Assembly: GCA_029289095.1 (NCBI GenBank)
Contig: JARFUG010000002.1
Location: forward strand, 50,880 to 114,879
Direction: 5' to 3'
DNA from: Desulfuromonadales bacterium
Lineage (GTDB): Bacteria; Desulfobacterota; Desulfuromonadia; Desulfuromonadales; JACZKF01
DNA length: 64,000 nucleotides
Shown here: positions 20,631-36,689 of the stretch, one piece after another
Layout of the letters: each line of letters begins with the position of its first letter
Position numbering within the stretch: position 1 is the first letter of the stretch
Position numbers and translations under genes: made by a program
The notes under the pieces: generated by a model
Databases searched by the model: none
What the model saw: the letters and a program-made list of their open reading frames with translations, nothing else
What the model was told of the DNA's origin: nothing

Positions 20631-21493
20631 AGCTCACCCGGGCGGGCATTCTCTATATCGTTTTGCTGCTCCTTCTCGGTTTCGGGGCGGTCAACACCGG
20701 AAACAACCTCCTCTACCTCATGGTGTCGGCCCTGCTCGGGCTCATGAGCGTCTCGGGCTTTCTAGGGCGCGCCAACCTGCGCTCGCTGGAAGTCGCCCTC
20801 GATCTCCCTGAAGAGATCTATGATGGCGTCGAAACCCTCGTCACCGTGCGCATAAAGAACCGCAGGCGAAAGCTTCCGGCCTTCCTGCTGCAGGTCGACC
20901 TGCAGGGCAGGAGCGCCCTCGTGCGCACCCTCGGCGCAGGGGATGAGGCGCGCGTCCCGGTCGCGACCGCCTTTCACGGCCGCGGCGCGCAGCGTCTCGC
21001 CGAGTTGCGCATCGCCTCCATCTTCCCGGTGAACTTCTTTGTGCGCTCCTTCGCCTTCCCCCTGGAGCGCGACTTCCTCGTCTTTCCCGCTCCGCACCCC
21101 TGCCGCTTCGCCTTCGGGTCGGAGCAGGCGCGAGAGGTGGGCGGGCCGACGCCGAAGGGACGGGGGGGAGACGGCGACCTGTGCCAGATCGACGATTACA
21201 CCGGAGCCGAGCCCCTCAAGCGCATTCACTGGAAGCTCTCCGCCCGCCAGGGGGAGCTGAAGGTCAAGCATACGGGGGCCACCGCCCGCGAGCCGGTCGT
21301 TCTCGATCCGGCGCTTCTTCCCGGCCGCGACCTGGAAGAGAAACTGCGCGGCGCGACCTGGCTCGTCAACCGGCTGATGCGCGAAGAGCGTCCGGTGGGG
21401 CTCAGGCTCGCCGATCGTCTCATCGCTCCGGCCGTATCGAGGGGGCACCGGATGCACCTCCTGCGGGAACTCGCATTGTATGGTCAGACTTAA
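20627..21493 (+). CDS. DUF58 domain protein (MoxR partner)
   Basis: The GTG start overlaps the MoxR stop (GTGA). There are two N-terminal TM helices and the motif DDYTGAEPLKRIHWKLSAR. Confidence 0.8.
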   Translation: MKLTRAGILYIVLLLLLGFGAVNTGNNLLYLMVSALLGLMSVSGFLGRANLRSLEVALDLPEEIYDGVETLVTVRIKNRRRKLPAFLLQVDLQGRSALVRTLGAGDEARVPVATAFHGRGAQRLAELRIASIFPVNFFVRSFAFPLERDFLVFPAPHPCRFAFGSEQAREVGGPTPKGRGGDGDLCQIDDYTGAEPLKRIHWKLSARQGELKVKHTGATAREPVVLDPALLPGRDLEEKLRGATWLVNRLMREERPVGLRLADRLIAPAVSRGHRMHLLRELALYGQT

Positions 21494-23390
21494 GACGCTC
21501 CTCAATCTGCTCGCCTACGGCGTTTCGTTGCTCGGCTTTCTCCCTCTGGCCGCGCACCTCGATGCTCCGGCGCTTGTTGCCTTTCCGCTGGCGCTCGTTG
21601 TCGGCGCCGTCTGGGACCGCCGGGAGGAATTCCCCCTCAAGCCCGGTTTCGCCACCCTCTTCACCGTGGCGGCCTTCGTCTTCTACGCCGCGCAGGTCAG
21701 CCGCGACCACCTCATCGAGCCGGCGGTCAATCTTCTCGTCCTGCTGCTGGCGGTGCGCCTTCTGAGCGCCAAGGGGGGGCGGGAATATCCCCAGATCTTC
21801 ACCCTCTCTCTCTTCGCCCTGGCCGCATCGTCGCTGCTGAGCCTGGGGATCGCCTACCTCTTCTACCTGGCGCCGATGATCGTGGGGATCACCGCCGGTC
21901 TTGTTCTTCTTTCCTTCTACAAGGTCGATCCGGAGGCGGTTCTGGAGCGCCGGGAGCTGCGCCGGCTCTCGGGGGTCTTTTTCGCCCTCCCCGCGACATC
22001 TCTTCTTCTGATGCTCGCCTTTTTCTTCATTCTACCCCGGACGCAGCAGCCGCTGTGGAATTTTCTTCAGCCCACGGCGGCGGCGAGCGGACTGAGCGAC
22101 CGGGTCATCCCCGGTTCTCTGGCCGGCGCCCTGGAGGAGAGACGTCCGGCGTTCCGCGTCCAGAGTCCTCCCCTCCCCCCGCAGGAGCTCTACTGGCGCG
22201 GCGTCGTCCTCAATCACCTGGACGATCGCGCCTGGGAGCGCAGAACGCCCCCCCGGGAAAGGACGCGCGTTGAAGGGGGGGAGGAGGTCCGGCAGACTTT
22301 CTTCCCCGAACCGGGTCCTTCCCAGTACCTGCCGCTCCTCGACCTCCCCCTCGAGCTGACGGGGGTGCGTCACCAGCGGGATGGGGACCTCGTCTTCAGC
22401 GGACGGCCGAGGGAGCGCCGCCTGAGCTACGAAGGGGTCTCGCTCTTCGGCGGCCGCCTGGTGGCGGAGGACGGGGTCGATCGCGAATTCTACCTGCAAC
22501 TGCCGCAGCAGATATCACCGCGGGTGGAGGCGGCCATCTCCCGGATCGTCTCAGCGGCAGCGGGGGATCGGGAGACGATCGCCGCGCTGGAAGATTTCTT
22601 CATTGAGCGCCGCCTTACCTATTCCCTCGACGCGGGGCTCCACGCCGAGGACCCGGTCGATCACTTCCTCTTCGAGAGCAGGCGGGGATACTGCGAGCAC
22701 TTCGCCACATCCTTCGTGCTGATGCTGCGCCGGGCCGGGATCCCCGCCCGGCTGGTCGGCGGCTACTACGGCGGGCACTACAACGCGATGGGCGGATACT
22801 ACCTGGTGAACGAGAGCCATGCCCACCTGTGGGTCGAGGCGCTGGTCGACGGACGGGAATGGGTGCGCCTCGACCCGACGACCCTCTCCCACAACGCCGC
22901 GCAGGCCTTCGGGGGGTCGGGACTGAACTGGCGACGGGGCCTTCTCGATGCCGTCGACCACTTCTGGAACCGCATCGTCATCACCTACGACCTGCAGCAG
23001 CAGATCGAGCTCTTTCGCAAAGCCGGGGAACGGGCCGCCCCCGAACGATGGAGCGCCCCAAGCCTTCCATCGGCGGCCGCCCTGGCCGGAGTCGCACTCA
23101 TCGTCGCGCTCCCTTTCATGCTGCGCGGCGCAGGGAACCTAAGAGGGCGCGAGCAGCGCCTTCTGCGGCGCTACCTGAACCTGGTGCGCCGGCGTCACAA
23201 ACTGGCGGAGATCCCCCCCTCGATGGGGCTGCAGGAGCTCGCCGAGCAGGTCGACGACCCTGCCTGCCGGCGCTTCGCCGCCATCTTCGGAGGGGCGATC
23301 TACCACGACAGACCGCTGTCGGAGGAGGAGTTCAGGGAGTGCAGGGAGGTGATGAAAAGGGTGGGGAGGAGGGGCAAGGATGAGGGATGA
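21480..23390 (+). CDS. Membrane transglutaminase-like protein (TgpA/DUF3488-type), with an intact catalytic Cys-His-Asp
   Basis: 636 aa. It has multiple N-terminal TM helices, then RRGYCEHFATSF, SHAHLWVE and VRLDPT. Confidence 0.85.
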   Translation: MVRLKTLLNLLAYGVSLLGFLPLAAHLDAPALVAFPLALVVGAVWDRREEFPLKPGFATLFTVAAFVFYAAQVSRDHLIEPAVNLLVLLLAVRLLSAKGGREYPQIFTLSLFALAASSLLSLGIAYLFYLAPMIVGITAGLVLLSFYKVDPEAVLERRELRRLSGVFFALPATSLLLMLAFFFILPRTQQPLWNFLQPTAAASGLSDRVIPGSLAGALEERRPAFRVQSPPLPPQELYWRGVVLNHLDDRAWERRTPPRERTRVEGGEEVRQTFFPEPGPSQYLPLLDLPLELTGVRHQRDGDLVFSGRPRERRLSYEGVSLFGGRLVAEDGVDREFYLQLPQQISPRVEAAISRIVSAAAGDRETIAALEDFFIERRLTYSLDAGLHAEDPVDHFLFESRRGYCEHFATSFVLMLRRAGIPARLVGGYYGGHYNAMGGYYLVNESHAHLWVEALVDGREWVRLDPTTLSHNAAQAFGGSGLNWRRGLLDAVDHFWNRIVITYDLQQQIELFRKAGERAAPERWSAPSLPSAAALAGVALIVALPFMLRGAGNLRGREQRLLRRYLNLVRRRHKLAEIPPSMGLQELAEQVDDPACRRFAAIFGGAIYHDRPLSEEEFRECREVMKRVGRRGKDEG

Positions 23391-27199: not shown

Positions 27200-30100
27200 A
27201 TGTTTCTCCCCGAGATCTCCATCAAGCGTCCTGTCACCGCCACGATGCTGGTGATGGCCCTCGTCATCTTCGGCCTTATCGGCCTGTCGCGTCTCGGCGT
27301 CTCTCTGTACCCCGACATCGACGATCCGGTGGTGACGGTGACGACCGTCTGGCAGAACGCCCGCCCCGAGGAGGTTGACAACGAAATCACCGACATCCTC
27401 GAGGACGCCGTGAGCGGGGTGAGCGGGATCAAGCACATCGCCTCCCAGAGCATGGAGGGGCGCTCGCGCATCGCCGTCACCTTCGAGTTGACCAAGGACA
27501 TCGACGTGGCGGCGCAGGAGGTGCGCGACAAGGTCTCGGCGCGCCTGCGCCGTCTCCCCGGCAATGCCGATGTGCCGGTGGTCGACAAGCTCGACATCAA
27601 CGCCCAGCCGATCATGTGGCTCGCCGTGACGGGGCAGAGGGCCATCGAGGATCTGACCTATATCGCCGATGTGCAGATCCGCCCCCTGCTGCAGAAGATC
27701 GAGGGGGTCGGCGAGGTGAGCGTCGGCGGAGGACGCGAAAAGCAGATCCATATCCGCCTGATGCGCGAGCGTCTGGCCGCCTACGGCATCGGCGTCGACG
27801 AGGTGATTCGCGCCATCCGCAGCCAGCACATGGAGATCCCCGGCGGAAAAATCGATTCGGGGGAAAAGGAATTCTTGATCCGCACCGTCGGCGAATTCGA
27901 GACGGCCGAGGCTTTCGCCGACCTGATCGTCACGCATCGCGACGGCGTCCCCATTCGCCTGGGGCTTCTGGGCGCCGTGGAGTCGGGACGCTCCGAAGAG
28001 CGACCCGCCGGACGCTTCACCCGCCAGGACGACGTCTTTCGCACCGCCGCCCTGCGCATCACGCCGCGCTCGGGGGCCAACGAGGTCGCCATCGCCCGCG
28101 CCGTCAAGAGGGACCTCCCCGAGATCCGCAGGCTCCTGCCCGACGGGGTGAACCTGCACATCGCCACCGACACGACCCGCTTCATCGAGCAGTCGATCCG
28201 CGAGATCCGATGGCAGCTCGTCTTCGGCGGCATCGCGGCCGCCCTGGTGATCCTTCTTTTTCTGCAGAACATCCGCACCACCGTCATCAGCGCCGTGGCG
28301 ATCCCGACTTCCATCATCGCCACCTTCGCCTGCCTCTATACCCTCGGCTTCACCATGAACAACATGACGATGCTCGGGCTCGTCATGGCCGTCGGCCTCG
28401 TCATCGACGACGCCATCGTAATGGTGGAGAACATCTATCGGCACCGAACTCTCGGCAAGGGGCCGATGCAGGCGGCCTTCGAGGGCTCGAGCGAGATCGC
28501 CTTCGCCATCATCGCCACGAGCCTCGTTCTGGCCGGGGTCTTTCTCCCCGTCGCCTTCATGGGCGGGGTGGTGGGGCGCTTCTTTTTCGAGTTCGCCGTG
28601 ACGGTCGCCTTCGCCGTGGCCTGCTCCACCTTCGTGGCGCTGACCGTCGTGCCGATGCTCAGCTCGCGCTTTCTCAAGCCCGGCTCGCCGAACCTTCAGG
28701 TCTTTCGCATCTTCGACCGGGGGATGGAGCACGCATCGAACTTCTACCGCAGCAGCATGCGCCTGATCCTTCGCCGCAAGGGGGTGATGGTTCTGCTGGC
28801 GGGGGCTGCCCTGGGGGGAGGGGTCTGGCTCTACTCCCTCCTCGGGCAGGAGCTCGTGACGCAGGAGGATCAGAGCCGCTTCGTCGTGCGCATCCAGACC
28901 CCCCTGGCCTATTCCATCGACAAGACCGACGAGGTGCTGCAGAGGGTGGAGGCGCGCCTGCGCGAGATCCCGGAGGTGAGCCACTTCTTCTCCTTCGCCG
29001 GCTGGGGAGGGGCGCACCGGGCCAGCGCCTTCGTCACCCTCGTTCCCAAAGAGGAGCGGCGGCGCAGCCAGCAGGAGATCCAGAGCGAGATTCGCGCCTT
29101 TTTACGCCAGCTCCCCGACGTGCGCGGCAACGCCACGGCGATCTCCCCCCTGGGTGGCGGGCAGCGCAGCGAGGATATCCAGTTCGTCATCCAGGGGCCG
29201 GACATCGCCGTTCTCGACAACGTCTCCAACCGGCTCATGACGCGCCTGGAGGAGACGGCGGGCTATTCGGGCGTCTCGCGCGACCTGGAGATCGGCAAAC
29301 CGGAGGTGCGCGTGCACATCGATCGCGAGAAGGCGGCCGAAGCCGGGGTGAGCGTCGAGGACATCGCCTCCACCGTCGGGGCGCTTCTGGGGGGGATCGA
29401 CGTCGCCACCTTCCGCGAAGGGGGAAAGAGCTACGACGTGCGGTTGCGCCTGTTGGCCGAACAGCGCTCCCTGCCCGGCGACGTGCAGCGAATCTTTGTG
29501 CGCGGCGCCAGGGGCGAACTCCTCGACATCAGCAGCTTCATCTCACTTGAAGAAGGGGTCGGACCGAGCGTCGTCAATCGCCTCGATCGCCAGCGCTCGG
29601 CCACCGTCTACGCGACTCTCGAGGGGGGAAAACTCCTCGGCGCGGCGATGCCCGAGGTGCGCCGCCTCGCCGCCGACATCCTCCCCGAGGGGTATTCCTC
29701 CCGGTTCTCCGGCAGCGCCGAGACGCTGGGAGAGACCGGAAAATACGTCGCCTTCGCCTTTCTGCTCGCCGTCGTTCTCACCTACATGGTGCTGGCGGCG
29801 CAGTTCGAAAGCTTCACTCACCCGATGGCGATCATGATGGGGCTCCCCCTTTCCTTCATCGGCGCCTTCGGCCTGCTTCTGCTCCTCGGCAACACCCTCA
29901 ATCTCTATTCGATGATCGGACTGGTGCTATTGATCGGATTGGCGACAAAGAACGGCATCCTCCTCATCGACTACACCAACCAGCTTCGACGCCGCGGGTT
30001 GAGCGTCGAGGAGGCCCTCATCGAAGCAGGGGCCACGCGTCTGCGCCCCATCCTGATGACCGCGATCTCCACCATCGCCGGGGTTCTCCCGGTCGCCCTC

Positions 30101-30307
30101 GGCTTCGGCGAGGGGAGCGAGAGCCGCCAGCCGATGGCCGTGGCAATCTCCGGCGGGCTTTTTTCGTCGACCCTTCTCACGCTGGCGGTGGTGCCGGTGA
30201 TTTACGCCTACCTCGACCAATTCAGCCAATGGCATGTCTTCGAGAAGATTAAAGGATGGGCCTTGGCGAGGGAAGAGGCCCCCGAGGCGGGCAAGGGTGA
30301 AGTATGA
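27200..30307 (+). CDS. RND family efflux transporter permease (AcrB/HAE-like)
   Basis: 1035 aa and recognisable as AcrB-like throughout. It starts 4 nt after the adaptor gene. Confidence 0.95.
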   Translation: MFLPEISIKRPVTATMLVMALVIFGLIGLSRLGVSLYPDIDDPVVTVTTVWQNARPEEVDNEITDILEDAVSGVSGIKHIASQSMEGRSRIAVTFELTKDIDVAAQEVRDKVSARLRRLPGNADVPVVDKLDINAQPIMWLAVTGQRAIEDLTYIADVQIRPLLQKIEGVGEVSVGGGREKQIHIRLMRERLAAYGIGVDEVIRAIRSQHMEIPGGKIDSGEKEFLIRTVGEFETAEAFADLIVTHRDGVPIRLGLLGAVESGRSEERPAGRFTRQDDVFRTAALRITPRSGANEVAIARAVKRDLPEIRRLLPDGVNLHIATDTTRFIEQSIREIRWQLVFGGIAAALVILLFLQNIRTTVISAVAIPTSIIATFACLYTLGFTMNNMTMLGLVMAVGLVIDDAIVMVENIYRHRTLGKGPMQAAFEGSSEIAFAIIATSLVLAGVFLPVAFMGGVVGRFFFEFAVTVAFAVACSTFVALTVVPMLSSRFLKPGSPNLQVFRIFDRGMEHASNFYRSSMRLILRRKGVMVLLAGAALGGGVWLYSLLGQELVTQEDQSRFVVRIQTPLAYSIDKTDEVLQRVEARLREIPEVSHFFSFAGWGGAHRASAFVTLVPKEERRRSQQEIQSEIRAFLRQLPDVRGNATAISPLGGGQRSEDIQFVIQGPDIAVLDNVSNRLMTRLEETAGYSGVSRDLEIGKPEVRVHIDREKAAEAGVSVEDIASTVGALLGGIDVATFREGGKSYDVRLRLLAEQRSLPGDVQRIFVRGARGELLDISSFISLEEGVGPSVVNRLDRQRSATVYATLEGGKLLGAAMPEVRRLAADILPEGYSSRFSGSAETLGETGKYVAFAFLLAVVLTYMVLAAQFESFTHPMAIMMGLPLSFIGAFGLLLLLGNTLNLYSMIGLVLLIGLATKNGILLIDYTNQLRRRGLSVEEALIEAGATRLRPILMTAISTIAGVLPVALGFGEGSESRQPMAVAISGGLFSSTLLTLAVVPVIYAYLDQFSQWHVFEKIKGWALAREEAPEAGKGEV

Positions 30308-30363
30308 ATGCGTTTCTGCGCCACTTTTCTTCGTGTCCGACCCCTGAAAAGACGTCGTGCTTC

Positions 30364-30393
30364 TTGACAAAGAGGCGGTGAGTCCCATAAAGT
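30364..30393 (+). promoter_or_regulatory. Sigma-70-like promoter candidate for the three-gene ATP-grasp module
   Basis: TTGACA (30364-30369), an 18-nt spacer, then TAAAGT (30388-30393). It lies about 30 nt upstream of ATG 30424. Confidence 0.4.
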
Positions 30394-30423
30394 GCACACT
30401 GCCCTCGCTCACAAACTAATTAA

Positions 30424-31263
30424 ATGATACTAAATATCACGTTGAAATCGATCCCGCTGCTGCTGGTGATTCTTCTCTCCTCAGCCTGCGCTCCAGGTCA
30501 TTTTCTCGTCAGGGAAGCCGATCTTCACCGACTCGAACTGCGCCTGCAGGAGCAGGAGGAGAGTCTTCTGCGCCTGTCGGAGCAACAGATAGCTCATCAA
30601 GACGCACTGCTCGATTCTCACTATTCAGCACTGGAAACCCGGTTCGAGACGCTTTTTCATCTGCAGAGCATTGCCGCGCAGCAGAGTGAACTGGCGGAGC
30701 ATCACAAGAGACTGGAGCAATTCGTCCGCACCCGCCTCCCCTCCCGAAATTCGGAACCGGAACAAAGCAACACCAGAAAGCCCTCGTTTGTTGCGGCGCC
30801 GGACGATAAACAGGTGATCGGCGCCGTGGAAAAGGTCTTTCTCTCACCGCCGGGAGCCCTTTTGCCGGCCCGTGTCGATACCGGCGCCACCACTTCATCG
30901 CTTGACGCCCGAGATATCGAGCACTTCGAACGCAACGGCGAACGCTGGGTGCGATTTTCCATGTTCAATCCCGAGGACAACTCGGAACTCGTTCTGGAAT
31001 GCCGTCTGGTTCGCAAGGTGCGCATCGTTCAGGCGGCGGCCGAAGAGGCCGAGCGGCGCCCAGTGGTGGAACTGGGGATCACGGTGGGAAGGTCGACCCA
31101 GACGGCCCAATTCACCCTCTCCGACCGTCGTCACCTCGAATATCCGGTGCTGATCGGCCGCAATGTCCTGATGGACATCATGGTGGTCGATGTGAGCCGC
31201 TCCCACATCGCGCCTCCCCTCCTTCCCTCCGACCCCGATCTCGACCTGCCGCAGACCCCATGA
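30424..31263 (+). CDS. Lipoprotein with a coiled-coil N-region and a C-terminal retropepsin-like (RimB/'ATP-dependent zinc protease' family) aspartic peptidase domain
   Basis: 279 aa. The signal ends LLSSAC and is followed by a heptad-rich QEQEESLLRLSEQQ region. The C-terminal domain carries ARVDTGATTSSLDA, WVRF and YPVLIGRNVL. Confidence 0.75.
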   Translation: MILNITLKSIPLLLVILLSSACAPGHFLVREADLHRLELRLQEQEESLLRLSEQQIAHQDALLDSHYSALETRFETLFHLQSIAAQQSELAEHHKRLEQFVRTRLPSRNSEPEQSNTRKPSFVAAPDDKQVIGAVEKVFLSPPGALLPARVDTGATTSSLDARDIEHFERNGERWVRFSMFNPEDNSELVLECRLVRKVRIVQAAAEEAERRPVVELGITVGRSTQTAQFTLSDRRHLEYPVLIGRNVLMDIMVVDVSRSHIAPPLLPSDPDLDLPQTP

Positions 31264-32780
31264 CGTCCAGGATCTTCTTTTACGCCATCGTCTGTACGCT
31301 CATCGTGACCGGAATCAGCATCGCCTGGCTCCGGCACACGCATGCGCACATCCCCTTCCTCCCCGGGTTGCAGTCGCAGGTCTGGCTGGTGGAGGCGCGC
31401 ATCGACTTCACGGCGCTGGGTGCGCCGGTGACTGTCAGCCTCGACATCCCCGACGATCCGCCCGGATTCCAGATCTTCGCCGAGCAGACGGCATCGCCCG
31501 GCTACGGCTTTTCCATCCTGGACGCCAATGACAATCGCCGCGGCGAGTGGTCGATCCGCAGCGCGAGCGGACCCCAGACGCTGTATTACAAGGCCCAGAT
31601 CGTCCCCCAGCGCACCCCGTTGACGGCGCCCGGGGACGCAGCCCGACCGGGGGCGGCGGTGGTTCACTGGGATGCGTCCGAAGCGCTGGCGGCCCGCCAG
31701 ATCCTCGCTGCGGCCCGAGCCACTTCCAGCAATCACGCGAGCATGACCCGGGAGGTCATTAAACTCGTGGCGACTCCCGCTCCTGGGCAGAATGCCGCGC
31801 TGCTCCTGACCGAAACGCCTCTTGTCCCCCTGCTCGAGAAGCTTCTCAACTACGCGGGCATACCGACGCGCATCGTGCTGGGGCTTCACCTGGAGGACGG
31901 CCGGCGCAACCAGCAGCTCGTGCCGTTGCTTGAAGTCTTCGCCGGCGACCGCTGGGTCCATTTCGACCCCCGGACCGGCCGGCAGGGGATCCCCGACGAT
32001 TTTCTCCTGTGGAATCAGGACGGGCGCTCGCTCCTCGACGTAAGCGGCGGTCGAAACTCCCAGGTGCGCTTTGCCATGATGAACCAGAGCATCCCTGCGG
32101 TGCAGCTCGCCAAGACCACCATGGAGGAGTCGAGTTTCGCCTTCTTCGGCGTTCACAGGCTCCCCGTCGAGGAGCAGAACATGCTCAGGATGGTGCTGCT
32201 GCTGCCGCTGGGAGCGCTGGTCGTCGTCTTCATGCGGATCATGATCGGAGTGCAGACCTCGGGGACCTTCATGCCGATCCTGATCGCCCTCTCCTTTCTG
32301 CAGACGGCCCTCTTTCCGGGACTGGTGAGCTTCATCTCCATCGTCGCCTTCGGCCTGCTCCTTCGCGGGTATCTTTCGCGCCTGAATCTCCTTCTGGTGG
32401 CGCGCATCGCCACCATCGTCATCATCGTCATCTCCGTGATCCTCTTCTCCAGCCTGCTGGGATACCAACTCGGCTTCAACACGGGGATGACGGTCACCTT
32501 CTTCCCCATCATCATCATCGCCTGGACCATCGAACGCATGTCGATCCTCTGGGAAGACGAGGGGCCGCGGGAAGTCCTCGTCCAGGGAGGAGGCAGCCTT
32601 CTGGTCGCGGTTATGGCCTACCTGCTGATGGCGTGGCCGGTGACGGCGCACCTGAGCTTTCACTTCCCCGAGACCAACCTCATCATCCTGGCGCTGATCC
32701 TGATCATGGGCAACTACACCGGCTACAAGCTCTCGGAGCTGCGCCGTTTTCGCGCCATGCGCCTGAAGTGGCTGCCATGA
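31260..32780 (+). CDS. Inactive-transglutaminase domain fused to a 7-TM domain (UUP1/7TM_transglut-type membrane protein)
   Basis: Its ATG at 31260 overlaps the upstream stop (ATGA). There is one N-terminal TM helix and a periplasmic domain with no Cys-His-Asp triad evident to me. Seven hydrophobic segments follow (GVQTSGTFMPILIALSF...). Confidence 0.7.
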   Translation: MTSRIFFYAIVCTLIVTGISIAWLRHTHAHIPFLPGLQSQVWLVEARIDFTALGAPVTVSLDIPDDPPGFQIFAEQTASPGYGFSILDANDNRRGEWSIRSASGPQTLYYKAQIVPQRTPLTAPGDAARPGAAVVHWDASEALAARQILAAARATSSNHASMTREVIKLVATPAPGQNAALLLTETPLVPLLEKLLNYAGIPTRIVLGLHLEDGRRNQQLVPLLEVFAGDRWVHFDPRTGRQGIPDDFLLWNQDGRSLLDVSGGRNSQVRFAMMNQSIPAVQLAKTTMEESSFAFFGVHRLPVEEQNMLRMVLLLPLGALVVVFMRIMIGVQTSGTFMPILIALSFLQTALFPGLVSFISIVAFGLLLRGYLSRLNLLLVARIATIVIIVISVILFSSLLGYQLGFNTGMTVTFFPIIIIAWTIERMSILWEDEGPREVLVQGGGSLLVAVMAYLLMAWPVTAHLSFHFPETNLIILALILIMGNYTGYKLSELRRFRAMRLKWLP

Positions 32781-33787
32781 AGCGGTTCATCGGCGCATTC
32801 CGGCTGAAAAAGCTCGGCCTCCTGGGAATGAACTGCCGAAACATCGACTTCATCGGCCGCTACAACCAGCGCAGCCTCTATCCTCTCGTTGACGACAAGC
32901 TCAAAACGAAGCGCCTTGCCAGGCGGCACGGCATCCCCGTTCCCCGCCTTCGCTTCGTGGTGCGCGAACAACACCAGATCAGAGATATCGAACGCCGCCT
33001 GAGCGCTGCGGGGGGATTTGCCGTCAAGCCGGCCAAAGGGTCTGGAGGAAGGGGGATTCTGGTAATTGTGGAGCGCTCTGGAGAGCACTTCGTCAAGGCG
33101 TCCGGGGCCAGGCTGACCCTGGGCGATCTCAAGCGCCACATGTCCAACATCCTGGCTGGGCTCTATTCGCTGGCCGGAACGCCCGACGTCGCCATCGTCG
33201 AGGAGCTAATCCAGTTCGACGCGCGTTTCCAGGGGTTTTCCCACGAAGGCGTTCCCGACATCCGCATCATCGTCTTTCAAGGGTATCCGGTCATGGCGAT
33301 GCTGCGCCTGGCGACCCACGCATCGGACGGCAAGGCCAACCTCCACCAGGGGGCGGTGGGCGTTGGACTCGACATCTCCACCGGCAGGTGCCTGAACGCG
33401 GTGCAGTTCTCACGCACATTGAGCATCCATCCGGACACCGGCCAGGCCTTCGACCAGATCCGTCTCCCCGACTGGCCCGGAATCCTTCATCTGGCCTCTC
33501 GTTGCTATGAGATGACGGGGCTCGGGTATCTCGGAACGGACATCGTTCTGGACAGGGAGCAAGGTCCTTTGCTGCTGGAACTCAACGCGCGGCCCGGCCT
33601 CTCCATCCAGATCGCCAACGATCAGGGATTGCTGCCGCGCCTTCGCCACATCGAAAAGGTGGCAAAAGCAAAGAGGCACGCTTCGCCCGAAGATCGGGTG
33701 CGATACGCCATGGAGACGTTCGGGGAGCCCGGATCGATCGATACCCGCCCCGAGCTCCCTTTTCGGACAGCCGAAGTCCGCGGCTGA
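32777..33787 (+). CDS. Alpha-L-glutamate-ligase-like (RimK-related) ATP-grasp enzyme
   Basis: Its ATG at 32777 overlaps the upstream stop (ATGA). It has LGMNCRNIDFIGRYNQRSLYPLVDDKLKTKRLA, KPAKGSGGRGI and LLELNARPGLSIQ. Confidence 0.8.
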   Translation: MKRFIGAFRLKKLGLLGMNCRNIDFIGRYNQRSLYPLVDDKLKTKRLARRHGIPVPRLRFVVREQHQIRDIERRLSAAGGFAVKPAKGSGGRGILVIVERSGEHFVKASGARLTLGDLKRHMSNILAGLYSLAGTPDVAIVEELIQFDARFQGFSHEGVPDIRIIVFQGYPVMAMLRLATHASDGKANLHQGAVGVGLDISTGRCLNAVQFSRTLSIHPDTGQAFDQIRLPDWPGILHLASRCYEMTGLGYLGTDIVLDREQGPLLLELNARPGLSIQIANDQGLLPRLRHIEKVAKAKRHASPEDRVRYAMETFGEPGSIDTRPELPFRTAEVRG

Positions 33788-33885
33788 GCCGCTCATAAAA
33801 AGGTGACGTGATCAGGTAAAAGAATGTGTTGACATCTCCGGCGAAATCATTTAGTCTCTCTTTCGTGGTGACGAGTTCACCACTT

Positions 33886-33929
33886 GGGCCATATCCTCCC
33901 CCCCCCTCCGGATATGGCCCTTTTTATTT
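33886..33929 (+). terminator. Rho-independent terminator
   Basis: GGGCCATATCC, a 13-nt C-rich loop, GGATATGGCCC, then TTTTTATTT. It is preceded by a second hairpin GTGGTGA-cgagt-TCACCAC at 33865-33883. Confidence 0.8.
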
Positions 33930-33968
33930 GTCCTGCATTCGGGATAACGCCGCCGCCCCTCTTCGAAC

Positions 33969-34175
33969 GTGCAAGCCATGGACGAACAAGCGATTATTGA
34001 TGGCCTGAAGACGATCTGCTACTGCAAGGGGATTCCGAAGAAGGTCTTCCTGAGGCACATTGCCGCCGGCGCATCGACAGTGGAAGACCTTAAAGCGCTC
34101 ACGGGAGCGGGGAGCGGCGCCTGCCTCGGACGGCGCTGCACCTCCCGCATCGAAGATCTGCTCAAGAAAAGCTGA
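33969..34175 (+). CDS. Small BFD-like [2Fe-2S]-binding domain protein
   Basis: 68 aa with the Cys pattern CYC...(31)...C-x4-C and the layout TVEDLKALTGAGSGAC. The start could instead be ATG 33978. Confidence 0.55.
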   Translation: MQAMDEQAIIDGLKTICYCKGIPKKVFLRHIAAGASTVEDLKALTGAGSGACLGRRCTSRIEDLLKKS

Positions 34176-34211
34176 AGACCTCGGGTCAAGAATCGGTCAT
34201 TCAAGGAGAAA

Positions 34212-34245
34212 GGGCGCAGCGCCGTTCGGTGCTGCGCCCTTTTTC
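34212..34245. terminator. Bidirectional terminator between convergent genes
   Basis: GGGCGCAGC-gccgttcggt-GCTGCGCCC flanked by A-rich sequence on the left and TTTTT on the right. Confidence 0.75.
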
Positions 34246-34265
34246 TATCCGTCGCACCCTTTGCA

Positions 34266-35153
34266 TTACGAGAGGGAGATGGGGCGAAGCGCTGCCGGCA
34301 CCTGCGCCTCGCAAGGGATCCTGACCTGGCACAGGCCGCAGGGGGTGGCGCCGGTGCCGTATCGTTTTGTTGCCCACGGGGCGGTTACCTCGCGAATGTA
34401 GCGGCGGCATGCAACCTTGTCGTGACCGGCGGCGGTGCTGATAGCGCCGACGGGGCAACGCAGGGCGCAGGCGCCGCACACCCCCTTTGCATACCACAGG
34501 CACCAGGCATGGTGGTCATCGCCGTAGGAACGTGCGCTGACGGGCAGCGCAATGCGGGAGACGACCGATCCGAAGCGCACCGCCTTGCCCCATGGGGTGA
34601 TCAGTCCGTCCGACAGCCCGAAGGTTCCTAGCCCCGCTACGAAGGCCGCATGGCGCTCGGACCAGTTCGAAGCGATGCCGAAACGTTCGGAGTGCCGGTA
34701 ATCGAACCCGGGCAGACGCTCGGGAGCCACGGAAGGATGCCCCATGGCGGTGAGGGCCGCTGCAAGGTGCAGGCGAAGCTCGCAGTTGAACTGCTCGCCG
34801 TAGAAGCGCGAGCGCGCCCACCGTTCTGCGGGCATTTGCTTCTCCTGCCGCTGCTCGGCGCGGGTTGCAGGCGTCTGGGGCAAAACGTAGCTGATGACCC
34901 GCAGTTCGGAAGAGGACGCAGGATCGTCGGGAAACGCCAAGGCGAAGGCCTCCTCCGGCGTCCAGAAGAAAGGACCGATCATCTCCTTGAAGCGAGAAAA
35001 GAAAGGATCATCCGCCGCGGCGACGCCGACATGAGGCTCAGCCCAGGCTTTCTCGTCGCCACCGGGGTAAAGCCTGTTGCGCGGGTCGGCGGCCCAGAAG
35101 TCTTCGATGATCTTCTTCACGTCCCCGACGCTCGGAACAGCGACCGATTGCAT
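34266..35153 (-). CDS. QueG/reductive-dehalogenase-superfamily 4Fe-4S protein (epoxyqueuosine-reductase-like)
   Basis: 295 aa. Its C-terminal Cys clusters are CGACALRCPVGAI and CGLCQVRIPC. I assign it at family level only. Confidence 0.55.
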   Translation of the reverse strand: MQSVAVPSVGDVKKIIEDFWAADPRNRLYPGGDEKAWAEPHVGVAAADDPFFSRFKEMIGPFFWTPEEAFALAFPDDPASSSELRVISYVLPQTPATRAEQRQEKQMPAERWARSRFYGEQFNCELRLHLAAALTAMGHPSVAPERLPGFDYRHSERFGIASNWSERHAAFVAGLGTFGLSDGLITPWGKAVRFGSVVSRIALPVSARSYGDDHHAWCLWYAKGVCGACALRCPVGAISTAAGHDKVACRRYIREVTAPWATKRYGTGATPCGLCQVRIPCEAQVPAALRPISLS

Positions 35154-35252: not shown

Positions 35253-36689
35253 ATGATACGATGGTTCACCAAAGGATACGAGCGTTTGCTTCTGGGTCTG
35301 TTCGCCTTTGTTCCATTGTGGGGCATCGTTTACCTGCAGCGTTTCCAGGATCCGACCTTACGGCATGAAAGTCATTCCTTCCATGAGATCGCCGTCGGCA
35401 TCGCGATCCTCCTGGGCGGACTTGTCGCCGTCGTCACCTGGCGCTGTTATCAAGCATCGGGCGAGACGTTTTTGTACTGGCTGGCTCTGGGATTTCTCGG
35501 CTTCACCCTGATTTATCTCCCGCACGGCCTCTTCACCCGATTCACCCACCACAACATCTGGTTTTTCCTCCTCTACGGCCCGGCGTCGCGGCTCGTCATG
35601 AGCGGGCTGCTGTTCAAGGGGCTCCTCACCTACGGCCGTCCCCCCGAGCCCCCCGAGAGGCGAAAAGGTTGGCGATCCCTGCTCGCCTGGGTGATGTTTT
35701 TCGTGCTGGCCGATCTGGCCGTCGGCCTCGTTGCCTGGTCGCCAATCGCCGCAAACCCTCTGGTGCGAATGAGCATGGAAGGCGGAGCCCTTCTGCTGGC
35801 GATGGCCGGAGTCGCCGTGCTGCTGGCGCGCAGGATCGGGGCGCCTCTGATGACGATCTACGCCATCTCTCTGTTGATTTTTTCCCAGGCTTCCATTGCA
35901 TTTCTTCTTGGGCACCCATGGAATCACCAGTGGTGGCTTGCCCACCTCGTGTTCGCCTGGGGATTTCTCCTTCTGAGTTTCGGTGTCGTCAGGGCCTTCC
36001 ATTCTACGCGCTCCTTCTCCGCGGTTTACAGCCAGGAGGAAATGATGGCGCAGCTCACCCAGGCGAAGGAGCAGACGGATATCGCCCTGGCACAGCTTCA
36101 ACACGCCAACCGGGAACTGCAGAGACTGGCCGCCACAGATCCTCTGACCGGGGCCGCCAACCGGCGTCACTTTCGCGATCAGGCCCAGGTAGAGATCAGC
36201 CGGGCGAAAAGACACCATCTGCCGCTCTCTGTGCTGGCCATGGACCTGGACCACTTCAAATCGATCAATGATCGTTACGGACACCCCGCCGGGGACGAAA
36301 TACTGAAGACCTTTGTAACAGAGGTCAAAGATGTCTTGCGGCCGGGGGACCTCGTCGGGCGATTCGGCGGCGAAGAATTCATGGTCCTGCTCCCCGGTTC
36401 GACGGAGGAAGCGGCCGCCGGCGTCGCAGAGCGGTTGCGACGAGTGGTTGAGCAGATGCGGGTTGCGGTCGACGGGGATCTTCTCCAGGTCACGGTCTCC
36501 ATCGGGGTGGCCCGTCATGGTCTGGACGGCGACGCTCCCGAGGATTTGTTCAAGGTCGCAGACGAGCGGCTCTACCAGGCCAAGATGAGAGGCCGCAACC
36601 AGGTGGTCGGATTGGTTGACGCCGGTAGATCCGCAACATGGCATTCCGAAATCCTCCGTTCGATGGAGGTTTCAAGTCCGGCGGATTGA
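35253..36689 (+). CDS. Membrane-bound diguanylate cyclase (GGDEF) with an I-site
   Basis: 478 aa with about 8 N-terminal TM segments and a coiled coil. It then has RPGD-LVGRF-GGEEF, which is an RxxD I-site 5 residues before an intact GGEEF. Confidence 0.9.
   Translation: MIRWFTKGYERLLLGLFAFVPLWGIVYLQRFQDPTLRHESHSFHEIAVGIAILLGGLVAVVTWRCYQASGETFLYWLALGFLGFTLIYLPHGLFTRFTHHNIWFFLLYGPASRLVMSGLLFKGLLTYGRPPEPPERRKGWRSLLAWVMFFVLADLAVGLVAWSPIAANPLVRMSMEGGALLLAMAGVAVLLARRIGAPLMTIYAISLLIFSQASIAFLLGHPWNHQWWLAHLVFAWGFLLLSFGVVRAFHSTRSFSAVYSQEEMMAQLTQAKEQTDIALAQLQHANRELQRLAATDPLTGAANRRHFRDQAQVEISRAKRHHLPLSVLAMDLDHFKSINDRYGHPAGDEILKTFVTEVKDVLRPGDLVGRFGGEEFMVLLPGSTEEAAAGVAERLRRVVEQMRVAVDGDLLQVTVSIGVARHGLDGDAPEDLFKVADERLYQAKMRGRNQVVGLVDAGRSATWHSEILRSMEVSSPAD

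What the first reader, a model, noticed from the sequence alone, without database searches (positions are those of the whole stretch)
30364..33929. Self-contained three-gene module: retropepsin-like lipoprotein, inactive-transglutaminase/7TM protein and RimK-related ATP-grasp ligase
Three genes are translationally coupled by ATGA overlaps at 31260-31263 and 32777-32780. They are bracketed by their own TTGACA-type promoter candidate and a strong terminator.

- Gene 1 is a lipoprotein with a coiled-coil spacer and a C-terminal aspartic peptidase domain with a DTGA motif (RimB/'zinc protease' family).
- Gene 2 has a periplasmic transglutaminase-like domain in which I cannot find a Cys-His-Asp triad, fused to seven TM helices. 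This contrasts with the intact CEHF...H...D transglutaminase at 21480-23390.
- Gene 3 is an ATP-grasp amidoligase of the alpha-L-glutamate-ligase-like clade.

To my knowledge this trio has only been discussed in comparative-genomics surveys of ATP-grasp amidoligases. It has no known substrate, product or phenotype. The architecture suggests an envelope-associated cycle of peptide (poly-amino-acid) ligation and trimming, with the 7TM protein as scaffold or exporter. The coiled-coil lipoprotein extension on the protease is an unusual addition.
Basis: partly seen in the sequence, partly recalled or inferred. Interest (0 to 1): 0.7.

Follow-up and report, generated by a model that had tools for sequence, protein, structure and literature searches.

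The report
rloABC envelope operon, lipoprotein-tethered protease
The three genes are real and tightly coupled, but they are a copy of the rloABC operon that was characterised in Pseudomonas aeruginosa in 2025; the only new point is that the protease here is tethered to a membrane by a lipid anchor and a long helical stalk, a form that is common in databases but has not been studied.

Summary
Three co-directional genes (30424-31263, 31260-32780, 32777-33787) overlap by ATGA. They sit between a sigma-70-like promoter candidate and a strong terminator.

The trio is no longer uncharacterised. It is the rloABC operon (Lormand et al., mBio 2025). In P. aeruginosa:
- RloA retropepsin-like peptidases cut runs of at least 8 glutamates.
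- The triple rloA mutant dies in hypo-osmotic medium.
- Deleting rloB or rloC rescues it.

The product of RloC is still unknown.

What differs here is RloA. It has a lipobox cysteine, a 74-residue heptad-periodic helix, a disordered linker and then the protease domain. It lacks the disulfide pair of the Pseudomonas enzymes. This form is not unusual: it precedes rloB in at least 77 of 79 complete species loci and makes up most of the nearest 150 protein clusters.

My best reading is that RloC builds a polyanionic (poly-glutamate-like) chain, RloB passes it across the inner membrane, and tethered dimeric RloA trims it.

I rate it a new variant of a known kind, of modest interest.

The parts
30364..30393 (+). 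Sigma-70-like promoter candidate, TTGACA-18 nt-TAAAGT
   Evidence: It matches 10 of 12 positions and is the only hit in 30000-34300, where 0.7 are expected by chance. A comparable TTGACA-17 nt-TACAGT lies upstream of rloA in relative L083. No transcription start is known.
30424..31263 (+). rloA-like gene: lipoprotein-type retropepsin-like aspartic peptidase, 279 aa
   Evidence: PF05618 matches at E 8e-37. The best NCBIfam match is RloA3 at 120 bits, below its cutoff of 210. The model matches the RloA crystal structures 9g58 (38% identity, TM-score normalised to target 0.78) and 9g59.
30424..30489 (+). Signal peptide ending in the lipobox L-S-S-A-C (Cys22)
   Evidence: C22 is invariant in 27 homologues. 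A lipobox was found in at least 77 of 79 complete upstream RloA ORFs; the 80th is cut by the contig end. Residue +2 is Ala, and none of the 77 loci with a detected lipobox has Asp at +2.
30514..30735 (+). Single long alpha-helix (residues 31-104), a probable dimeric coiled-coil stalk
   Evidence: AlphaFold2 models helix 31-104 with block-mean pLDDT 90-97. Hydrophobic periodicity peaks at 3.5 residues, 7.6 against 4.4 at 3.6. Pairwise identity is 19% here against 60% in the protease domain, while length is held within a narrow range.
30736..30810 (+). Disordered linker (residues 105-129)
   Evidence: pLDDT is below 50 for residues 108-126. Pairwise identity is 11%.
30811..31215 (+). Retropepsin-like protease domain with DTGA at 30877-30888
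   Evidence: PF05618 covers residues 131-264. D152, R150, R197, R212 and R235 align with D48, K46, R92, R114 and R137 of Pseudomonas RloA, mapped through the 9g58 alignment and the residue roles given. All five are invariant in alignment A1.
31260..32780 (+). rloB-like gene: N-terminal TM helix, periplasmic inactive transglutaminase-like domain, C-terminal 7TM domain; 506 aa
   Evidence: PF14400 and PF14402 both match. The NCBIfam RloB model aligns end to end (9-500 against 10-505 of 508) at 318 bits, below its cutoff of 900.
31347..32159 (+). Periplasmic beta-sandwich plus transglutaminase-like fold without a catalytic Cys or His (residues 30-300)
   Evidence: Foldseek finds 3isr at E 6e-8 over 277 columns. 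There are no cysteines in this domain. hhalign to the window's active TgpA-like protein places no His at the catalytic His position.
32160..32771 (+). Highly conserved multi-helix membrane domain (PF14402)
   Evidence: 41% of its columns are invariant against 20% in the periplasmic domain. It has many invariant charged residues: E304, E305, R369, R382, E425, R426, E432, E438, H464, E471, E493, R496. No solved relative was found.
32777..33787 (+). rloC-like gene: cytoplasmic ATP-grasp ligase of the alpha-L-glutamate-ligase-like family; 336 aa
   Evidence: TIGR02291 scores 434 bits against a cutoff of 314. PF14397 covers residues 21-294. Read directly from the translation: VKPAKGSGGRG loop, NLHQGA, and ELNARPG (E-x-N). 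The ATP-grasp core starts at about residue 39, so there is no RimK-type N-terminal domain.
33865..33929 (+). Two hairpins; the second is an intrinsic terminator (stem 33886-33896 with 33910-33920, T-tract 33921-33929)
   Evidence: RNA fold of 33785-33935 gives -43.7 kcal/mol, z-score -2.2, with an 11-bp perfect stem followed by UUUUUAUUU.

Best explanation
This is an rloABC operon in a Thermodesulfobacteriota-like metagenome-assembled genome. It is homologous to, and arranged like, the operon characterised in Pseudomonas aeruginosa.

**Proposed working.**
1. RloC is a minimal cytoplasmic ATP-grasp ligase of the alpha-L-glutamate-ligase-like family. It builds a polyanionic chain, most likely poly-alpha-glutamate, either free or as a tail on a carrier.
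2. RloB receives the product at the inner membrane. It passes or presents it to the periplasm through its strongly conserved membrane domain. Its catalytically dead transglutaminase-like domain acts as a periplasmic binding module.
3. RloA trims the product. It is lipid-anchored (probably to the outer membrane), dimerised by a helix of about 11 nm, and joined to the protease domain by a flexible linker.

**Status of each step.**
- Shown here: gene structure, domains, synteny, conservation of the RloA residues that contact poly-glutamate, and loss of the transglutaminase triad.
- Shown elsewhere (PMC12239564): RloA cleaves runs of at least 8 Glu, and loss of rloB or rloC suppresses loss of the RloA proteases.
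- Inferred: the chemical nature of the RloC product, export by RloB, outer-membrane anchoring, and coiled-coil dimerisation.
For: **Identity.** Pfam and NCBIfam assign all three proteins. The RloA model superposes on the RloA crystal structures 9g58 and 9g59. The A-B-C order is kept in 80 of 80 species loci with near-zero or overlapping junctions; two loci are cut by a contig end at or just after rloB. The flanking genes vary.

**Substrate logic.** The catalytic Asp and the four pseudo-symmetric poly-glutamate contact residues of Pseudomonas RloA map to D152, R150, R197, R212 and R235. All are invariant in 27 long-form homologues.

**Genetics from the literature.** The triple rloA mutant is hypo-osmotically lethal and is rescued by deleting rloB or rloC. 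That is the pattern expected if RloB and RloC make something RloA must remove.

**RloB.** It has a transglutaminase fold without Cys or His. Its membrane domain is twice as conserved as the periplasmic one, with invariant charged residues. That argues for an active membrane function rather than a passive anchor.

**RloC.** It passes the TIGR02291 cutoff and has no RimK-type N-terminal acceptor domain. This fits a partner supplying the acceptor site.

**RloA tether.**
- The lipobox Cys is invariant.
- The helix is modelled with high confidence and has heptad periodicity.
- Spacer length is held (83 +/- 6 aa in 78 loci) while its sequence drifts.
- Five tandem two-domain relatives have Pro-rich, non-periodic spacers instead, against 207 single-domain ones. 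This is as expected if the helix serves dimerisation of an obligate-dimer retropepsin.
Against: - No product of RloC has been shown in any organism.
- The Pfam name of its family, 'sugar-transfer associated ATP-grasp', leaves a non-peptide acceptor open.
- The RloB membrane domain resembles no known transporter by sequence profile. The fold search returned significant matches only to a soluble transglutaminase-like protein, and the model of the membrane domain is poor, pLDDT about 45-65.
- Scores against the Pseudomonas-specific NCBIfam models fall well below their cutoffs, so functional equivalence rests on synteny and architecture.
- The long-form RloA lacks the disulfide pair reported for periplasmic RloAs.
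- Outer-membrane sorting is inferred from the E. coli +2 rule, which need not hold in this phylum.
- The tandem-domain comparison rests on n = 5.
- Many of the 80 loci are Marinobacter, so the counts are not phylogenetically independent.
Confidence: 0.6

Rival explanations
1. RloC decorates a non-peptide envelope precursor with amino acids, for example a lipid-linked glycan, periplasmic glucan or peptidoglycan intermediate. RloB flips or presents the decorated molecule, and RloA removes the peptide decoration.
For: The best Pfam family for RloC is PF14397, 'sugar-transfer associated ATP-grasp'. The Pseudomonas phenotypes are in cell shape, beta-lactam sensitivity and osmotic fragility, and the authors themselves raise peptidoglycan homeostasis. 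A Shewanella rloB mutant over-produces membrane vesicles.
Against: No glycosyltransferase or polysaccharide gene travels with the trio in the 80 loci, and the flanks vary. RloC is closest to the alpha-L-glutamate-ligase-like equivalog TIGR02291. RloA needs at least 8 consecutive Glu, a long peptide rather than a short decoration.
Confidence: 0.15
2. The system is a protein-tagging cycle like RimK/RimB. RloC poly-glutamylates a specific protein, a membrane or exported one and possibly RloB itself, and RloA removes the tails.
For: The RimK/RimB precedent: RimK extends the RpsF C-terminus and RimB trims it. RloA cleaves poly-glutamylated RpsF in vitro. RloB has a conserved cytoplasmic C-terminal segment, SELRRFR.
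Against: RloC is cytoplasmic and RloA periplasmic, so a tag added in the cytoplasm must cross the membrane. The RloB C-terminal tails are variable and often basic. RloC lacks the RimK N-terminal domain. No candidate substrate gene is conserved next to the trio.
Confidence: 0.15
3. One reading: an uncharacterised trio known only from comparative genomics, carrying an unusual protease extension.
For: The domain architecture is as described. The product of the ligase really is unknown.
Against: A dedicated genetic, structural and biochemical study exists, and NCBIfam names the proteins. The extension is the majority form: at least 77 of 79 complete operon-linked copies carry it, and 125 of the 150 nearest clusters are long.
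Confidence: 0.04
4. The three genes are neighbours without a shared function, or form an anti-phage or conflict module.
For: None beyond adjacency.
Against: Synteny holds in 80 of 80 loci with overlapping stops and starts. Epistasis has been published. There are no PADLOC matches.
Confidence: 0.02

Closest known systems
rloABC operon of Pseudomonas aeruginosa, PA14_41710/41730 and PAO1 PA1768-PA1766 (Lormand et al., mBio 2025, PMC12239564)
   Same: - The three protein families and the gene order match, and the genes are co-transcribed or coupled.
- The protease is secreted, with DTGA and conserved basic residues lining the channel.
- RloB is an inactive transglutaminase fused to a 7TM domain.
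- RloC is a cytoplasmic ATP-grasp protein.
   Different: - Pseudomonas RloA is short (NCBIfam models of 159-178 positions). It is annotated with a type I export signal and has a disulfide pair.
- The protein here is a 279-aa lipobox protein with a 74-residue helix and a linker, and no Cys pair.
- The host is not a gammaproteobacterium; the closest named relatives are Desulfurivibrio and Desulfuromonas.
- Scores fall below the Pseudomonas-specific NCBIfam cutoffs.
RimK/RimB (RimABK) ribosomal protein S6 poly-glutamylation system
   Same: An ATP-grasp glutamate ligase is paired with a retropepsin-like endopeptidase that cuts poly-glutamate. RloA cleaves RimB substrates in vitro.
   Different: - The Rim proteins are all cytoplasmic and there is no membrane protein.
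- RimK has an N-terminal domain that is absent here.
- RimB has no signal peptide.
- The NCBIfam RimB model scores only 70 bits against a cutoff of 200, and RimK models score 21-43 bits against cutoffs of 143-331.
Poly-gamma-glutamate synthesis and degradation (PgsBCA/CapBCA with PgdS/CapD), as a functional analogy only
   Same: A membrane-associated ATP-dependent ligase complex extrudes an anionic poly-glutamate, which a dedicated extracytoplasmic hydrolase then trims. This rests on general knowledge, and poly-gamma-glutamate is discussed.
   Different: No Pgs or Cap family appeared in the Pfam or NCBIfam scans. PgsB is a Mur-ligase-type enzyme and makes a gamma linkage (general knowledge, not tested here). 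The analogy concerns how it may work, not membership.
Outer-membrane lipoproteins with periplasm-spanning stalks (Lpp, LpoA/LpoB, RcsF), as a structural analogy only
   Same: A lipid anchor plus a long helix or linker places a functional domain at a set distance across the periplasm (general knowledge). Here the spacer length is constrained while its sequence is not.
   Different: There is no sequence relationship. The cargo here is a protease, and the localisation is untested.

Membership tests
rloABC operon (Lormand et al. 2025) | Retropepsin-like PF05618 peptidase with a DTG(A) motif and an N-terminal secretion signal | tested here: met
   PF05618 at E 8e-37. DTGA at residues 152-155. A signal peptide is present, but of the lipoprotein type. 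The model matches the fold of 9g58 and 9g59.
rloABC operon (Lormand et al. 2025) | [quoted passage not shown] | tested here: met
   Both domains match far above their cutoffs. The fold is transglutaminase-like. There is no Cys in the periplasmic domain.
rloABC operon (Lormand et al. 2025) | Cytoplasmic RimK-related ATP-grasp protein encoded last | tested here: met
   TIGR02291 scores 434 bits against a cutoff of 314, and PF14397 matches. No signal peptide or TM segment is seen in the translation.
rloABC operon (Lormand et al. 2025) | Gene order A-B-C on one strand, conserved across genomes | tested here: met
   Kept in 80 of 80 loci, two of them cut by a contig end at or just after rloB. The junctions are mostly overlapping or at most 2 nt apart.
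rloABC operon (Lormand et al. 2025) | Basic residues that coordinate poly-glutamate (K46, R92, R114, R137) and the catalytic D48 | tested here: met
   They map to R150, R197, R212, R235 and D152 through the 9g58 alignment. All are invariant in A1. The mapping uses P. fluorescens chain numbering plus 20 and was not checked against the P. aeruginosa sequence itself.
rloABC operon (Lormand et al. 2025) | Disulfide pair described as conserved in periplasmic RloA orthologues | tested here: not met
   The window's RloA has only C22 (lipobox) and C193. No second conserved Cys appears in A1.
rloABC operon (Lormand et al. 2025) | Hypo-osmotic lethality of protease loss, suppressed by loss of rloB or rloC | not testable with these tools
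   Genetic phenotype; the organism is known only as a metagenome-assembled genome.
NCBIfam RloA1/RloA2/RloA3 and RloB named models | Score at or above the curated cutoff | tested here: not met
   RloA3 scores 120 against 210, RloA2 95 against 250, RloA1 82 against 280, and RloB 318 against 900. These models are narrow (equivalog or exception type), and the RloB alignment is nevertheless end to end.
RimB/RimK system | Cytoplasmic RimB (no signal peptide) plus RimK with its N-terminal domain, and no membrane partner | tested here: not met
   A signal peptide with a lipobox is present. RimB scores 70 bits against 200, and the RimK family 43 against 143. RloB is interposed between the two genes.
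Active transglutaminase-like cysteine peptidase (PF01841, TgpA-like) | Cys-His-Asp catalytic triad | tested here: not met
   PF01841 scores 17 bits, below its cutoff of 23, and only over the C-terminal part. There is no Cys in residues 30-300. There is no His at the aligned position against the window's own TgpA-like protein, although that alignment is weak, probability 21%.
Bacterial lipoprotein | Signal peptide ending in a lipobox with an invariant Cys at +1 | tested here: met
   The N-terminus reads MILNITLKSIPLLLVILLSSAC. The Cys is invariant in 27 homologues and was found in at least 77 of 79 complete operon-linked copies. Acylation itself is not testable here.
Dimeric coiled coil | Long helix with a heptad a/d hydrophobic pattern that forms a dimer | tested here: inconclusive
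   The helix at 31-104 is modelled with high confidence and has 3.5-residue periodicity. However, the heptad register shifts along the helix, and no multimer model or dedicated coiled-coil predictor was available.

The most novel reading that the evidence does not exclude
The long-form RloA acts as a periplasm-spanning ruler. It would be anchored in the outer membrane, dimerised by a stalk of about 11 nm whose length is conserved but whose sequence is free, and joined by a flexible linker. Its protease would then reach the RloB exit site on the inner membrane only when the envelope has a certain width. Trimming of the RloB/RloC polyanion would thus be gated by periplasmic geometry, giving a mechanical link between osmotic state and the amount of fixed periplasmic charge.
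Probability: 0.12. Interest if true: 0.65.

Novelty: new variant of a known kind. Interest (0 to 1): 0.3.

Why it matters
The operon matters because it affects osmotic survival, beta-lactam sensitivity, biofilm formation and cell shape in P. aeruginosa, yet the molecule it makes is still unknown.

This window adds two things. First, the system extends beyond Gammaproteobacteria into Desulfobulbales/Desulfuromonas-like lineages, with RloB about 60% identical across that distance. Second, the Pseudomonas model is architecturally atypical. Around rloB, the common form of the protease is a lipid-anchored, stalked, probably coiled-coil-dimerised enzyme.

That gives experimenters a defined location for the trimming step and a testable handle: stalk length, anchor and dimerisation. 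It does not open a new category of system.

Tried and rejected
- **Iyer et al. 2009 amidoligase survey (PMC3268129).** The paper is not held. It is cited only through the reference lists seen, and my recollection of its content was not used as evidence.
- **Rfam scan of 30200-34300.** Only sub-threshold chance hits came back, so there is no known riboswitch or sRNA in the leader or trailer.
- **PADLOC.** No defence-system match.
- **Profile of the RloB family against all PDB sequences.** Nothing below E 0.88.
- **AlphaFold2 model of RloB.** The membrane domain has low confidence, pLDDT about 45-65, so no inference was drawn from its shape. Foldseek gave significant matches only to one soluble transglutaminase-like protein.
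- **hhalign of RloB against the window's active TgpA-like protein.** Only the C-terminal half of the core aligned, weakly, at probability 21%. It was used only as secondary support for loss of the His.
- **Paralogues in the window.** A search for a second RloA, RloB or RloC found none.
- **Promoter conservation by alignment with relatives.** The sequences are not alignable. Only the independent presence of a consensus -35/-10 pair in L083 was retained.
- **Follow-up literature.** A search for papers on the RloC product found none.

Full report
**1. What is in the sequence**

Three genes lie on the + strand:
- gene 1, 30424-31263, 279 aa;
- gene 2, 31260-32780, 506 aa;
- gene 3, 32777-33787, 336 aa.

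A TTGACA-18 nt-TAAAGT motif lies upstream at 30364-30393. It is the only sigma-70-like match in 4.3 kb, but about 0.7 are expected by chance, so alone it is weak. The closest different-species relative (L083, RloB 80% identical) has its own TTGACA-17 nt-TACAGT in the short spacer before rloA, where 0.0 are expected. The two upstream regions are otherwise not alignable.

Downstream, an 11-bp perfect stem (33886-33896 with 33910-33920) followed by TTTTTATTT forms a strong intrinsic terminator. The simple scan missed it because its loop is 13 nt.

**2. Domain assignments**

- Gene 1: PF05618 at residues 131-264, E 8e-37.
- Gene 2: PF14400 at 25-185 and PF14402 at 257-500.
- Gene 3: PF14397, and TIGR02291 at 434 bits against a cutoff of 314.

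The NCBIfam library now contains models named RloA1, RloA2, RloA3 ('retropepsin-like aspartic peptidase') and RloB ('osmotic stress tolerance membrane protein'). These are the best hits for genes 1 and 2, although both score below their narrow cutoffs: 120 against 210, and 318 against 900, the latter aligned end to end.

**3. The trio is already characterised**

Lormand et al. (mBio 2025, PMC12239564) named the operon rloABC in P. aeruginosa. Their findings are:
- RloA, RloA2 and RloA3 are secreted retropepsin-like dimers, with crystal structures 9G58 and 9G59.
- RloA cleaves runs of at least 8 glutamates. Substitutions of basic channel residues reduce cleavage, R114A and R137A most strongly, and those two mutants also fail to complement.
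- The triple protease mutant cannot grow without salt. It also has defects in biofilm formation, beta-lactam sensitivity and cell shape.
- Deleting rloB or rloC rescues it.

The authors state that the physiological substrate and the activities of RloB and RloC remain unknown.

Earlier screens had hit PA1766-PA1768. A Shewanella rloB mutant over-produces membrane vesicles. A search for follow-up work on the RloC product found nothing.

**4. Is the window's trio a true counterpart?**

*Synteny.* A scan of one genome per species with an RloB-family profile gave 592 confirmed loci, of which the best 80 were kept. All 80 have a PF05618-type gene immediately upstream. A TIGR02291-type gene lies immediately downstream on the same strand in 78; the other two contigs end at or just after rloB. 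Junctions are mostly overlapping or at most 2 nt apart.

*Flanks.* They are not conserved. The RND pump that precedes the trio here recurs in 3 of the 80 loci and the BFD-like gene in none. The two closest relatives carry the trio among different neighbours. The module is therefore self-contained.

*Protease residues.* Through the HMMER alignment to 9g58, D48, K46, R92, R114 and R137 of Pseudomonas RloA correspond to D152, R150, R197, R212 and R235 here. All are invariant in a 27-member alignment. The AlphaFold2 protease domain superposes on 9g58, 9g59 and 2pma (TM-score normalised to target 0.78-0.84). More distant matches are Ddi1 and retroviral proteases.

*RloB periplasmic part.* It models well (pLDDT about 80-90). 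It matches a transglutaminase-like putative cysteine protease with an N-terminal beta-sandwich (3isr, E 6e-8). The domain has no cysteine at all, here and in 15 of 16 relatives. A weak profile alignment to the window's own active TgpA-like protein (21480-23390; PF11992 plus PF01841) puts no histidine at the catalytic position. 'Inactive' is therefore correct.

*RloC.* It carries the ATP-grasp signatures VKPAKGSGGRG, NLHQGA and ELNARPG, read directly from the translation. Its ATP-grasp core begins at about residue 39, so it has no RimK-type N-terminal domain.

**5. What differs: the protease**

The window's RloA has four parts:
- a signal peptide ending in a lipobox, with Cys22 invariant in 27 homologues;
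- a single helix at residues 31-104, modelled at block-mean pLDDT 90-97;
- a disordered linker at 105-129;
- the protease domain.

The helix shows hydrophobic periodicity of 3.5 rather than 3.6 residues (7.6 against 4.4), with register shifts. That fits a coiled coil but does not prove one.

The Pseudomonas enzymes differ. They are short (NCBIfam models of 159-178 positions). PA1768 is annotated with a type I export signal. They carry a disulfide pair that the authors describe as conserved in periplasmic orthologues. The window's protein has no such pair. The mBio paper never mentions lipoproteins or coiled coils.

It is not:
- A lipobox followed by a 72-105-aa spacer was found in at least 77 of the 79 complete operon-linked RloA copies; the 80th is cut by the contig end. 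The hosts include Marinobacter, Cellvibrio, Halieaceae, Photobacterium and Desulfuromonas.
- Among the 150 nearest 50%-identity cluster representatives of the protease domain, 125 are long, 114 have a lipobox and 106 have both.

Spacer length is constrained: 83 +/- 6 aa in 78 loci, and 84-115 aa in the more diverse set. Its sequence is not: 19% pairwise identity against 60% in the protease domain.

A small comparison is suggestive. Five lipobox proteins carry two protease domains in tandem. Their spacers are shorter, Pro-rich and non-periodic, unlike those of 207 single-domain proteins. That is what one would expect if the helix exists to dimerise an obligate-dimer retropepsin. With n = 5 this is only a lead.

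None of the 77 loci with a detected lipobox has Asp at +2. By the E. coli sorting rule this predicts outer-membrane anchoring, but the rule may not apply in this phylum.

**6. How it most likely works**

I combine the published epistasis with the anatomy here.
- RloC builds a polyanionic, most likely poly-alpha-glutamate, chain in the cytoplasm.
- RloB transfers or presents it across the inner membrane. Its membrane domain is twice as conserved as its periplasmic domain (41% against 20% invariant columns) and is studded with invariant charged residues. The dead transglutaminase-like domain serves as a periplasmic binding platform.
- RloA, tethered and dimeric, trims the product.

Without RloA the product accumulates and becomes harmful at low osmolarity. 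Without RloB or RloC there is no product. The nature of the product, export by RloB, and the anchoring and dimerisation of RloA are all inferences.

The rivals are amino-acid decoration of a glycan or peptidoglycan precursor (PF14397 is named 'sugar-transfer associated', and the phenotypes are in the cell wall) and tagging of a specific protein in the manner of RimK. Neither is excluded.

A defence-system reading is not supported. The RloB membrane domain has no detectable solved relative.

**7. Source and taxonomy**

The window matches a metagenome-assembled genome, GCA_030604755.1. The closest named homologues of RloA and RloB are from Desulfurivibrio (Thermodesulfobacteriota) and Desulfuromonas. 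RloB is nevertheless about 60% identical to gammaproteobacterial copies. The published description stresses Gammaproteobacteria.

**8. Verdict**

The locus is a member of the known rloABC kind with a variant, unstudied but common, lipoprotein-stalk form of the protease. Interest is modest. The open question, what RloC makes, is real, but it is already posed in the literature and this window does not make it much more tractable.

Noticed in passing
window 33788-33977: The 190-nt spacer between rloC and the BFD-like [2Fe-2S] gene (33978-34175) holds a TTGACA at 33830-33835, a small hairpin (33865-33883) and the terminator hairpin. The terminator's 13-nt loop is almost pure C with two CCUCC motifs. 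No promoter-like site lies between the terminator and the BFD-like gene. It could be a short sRNA or an attenuator, or simply a double-hairpin terminator. There was no Rfam match and no relative to compare with.
   Followed up: partly
proteins P0058, P0241, P0242, P0246, P0275 (two domains); P0350, P0360 (three to four matched stretches, about 627 aa): Some relatives of RloA carry two or more retropepsin-like domains in one chain, forming single-chain pseudo-dimers that recall how pepsins arose. The two-domain lipoproteins lack the heptad helix and have Pro-rich spacers instead.
   Followed up: partly
window 35253-36689; L083 2895-5039: Cyclic-di-GMP genes lie next to the trio in two related genomes: a membrane GGDEF protein 1.5 kb downstream here, and a PAS-GGDEF-EAL protein immediately upstream of rloA in L083. 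GGDEF homologues also occur in L020 and L021. The related Rim system is regulated by c-di-GMP and RimA. This may be chance, since such genes are common.
   Followed up: no
It is not linked to the trio in other genomes, where the flanks differ.
   Followed up: partly
window 34266-35153 (- strand): A 295-aa ORF has no Pfam family and only a faint 4Fe-4S ferredoxin motif at residues 226-244. It is called as a gene in the source assembly.
   Followed up: partly
window 30400-30426: rloA starts at the first ATG directly after an in-frame TAA. It has no recognisable Shine-Dalgarno sequence in the AT-rich stretch ACTAATTAAATG. rloB and rloC also lack one and appear to rely on ATGA coupling.
   Followed up: no
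RloB homologue annotations: Public names for this one family are inconsistent. They include 'inactive transglutaminase family protein', 'UUP1 family membrane protein' and the evident mis-annotation 'Gonadoliberin III'. RloA homologues are still called 'ATP-dependent zinc protease' although they are aspartic peptidases.
   Followed up: no
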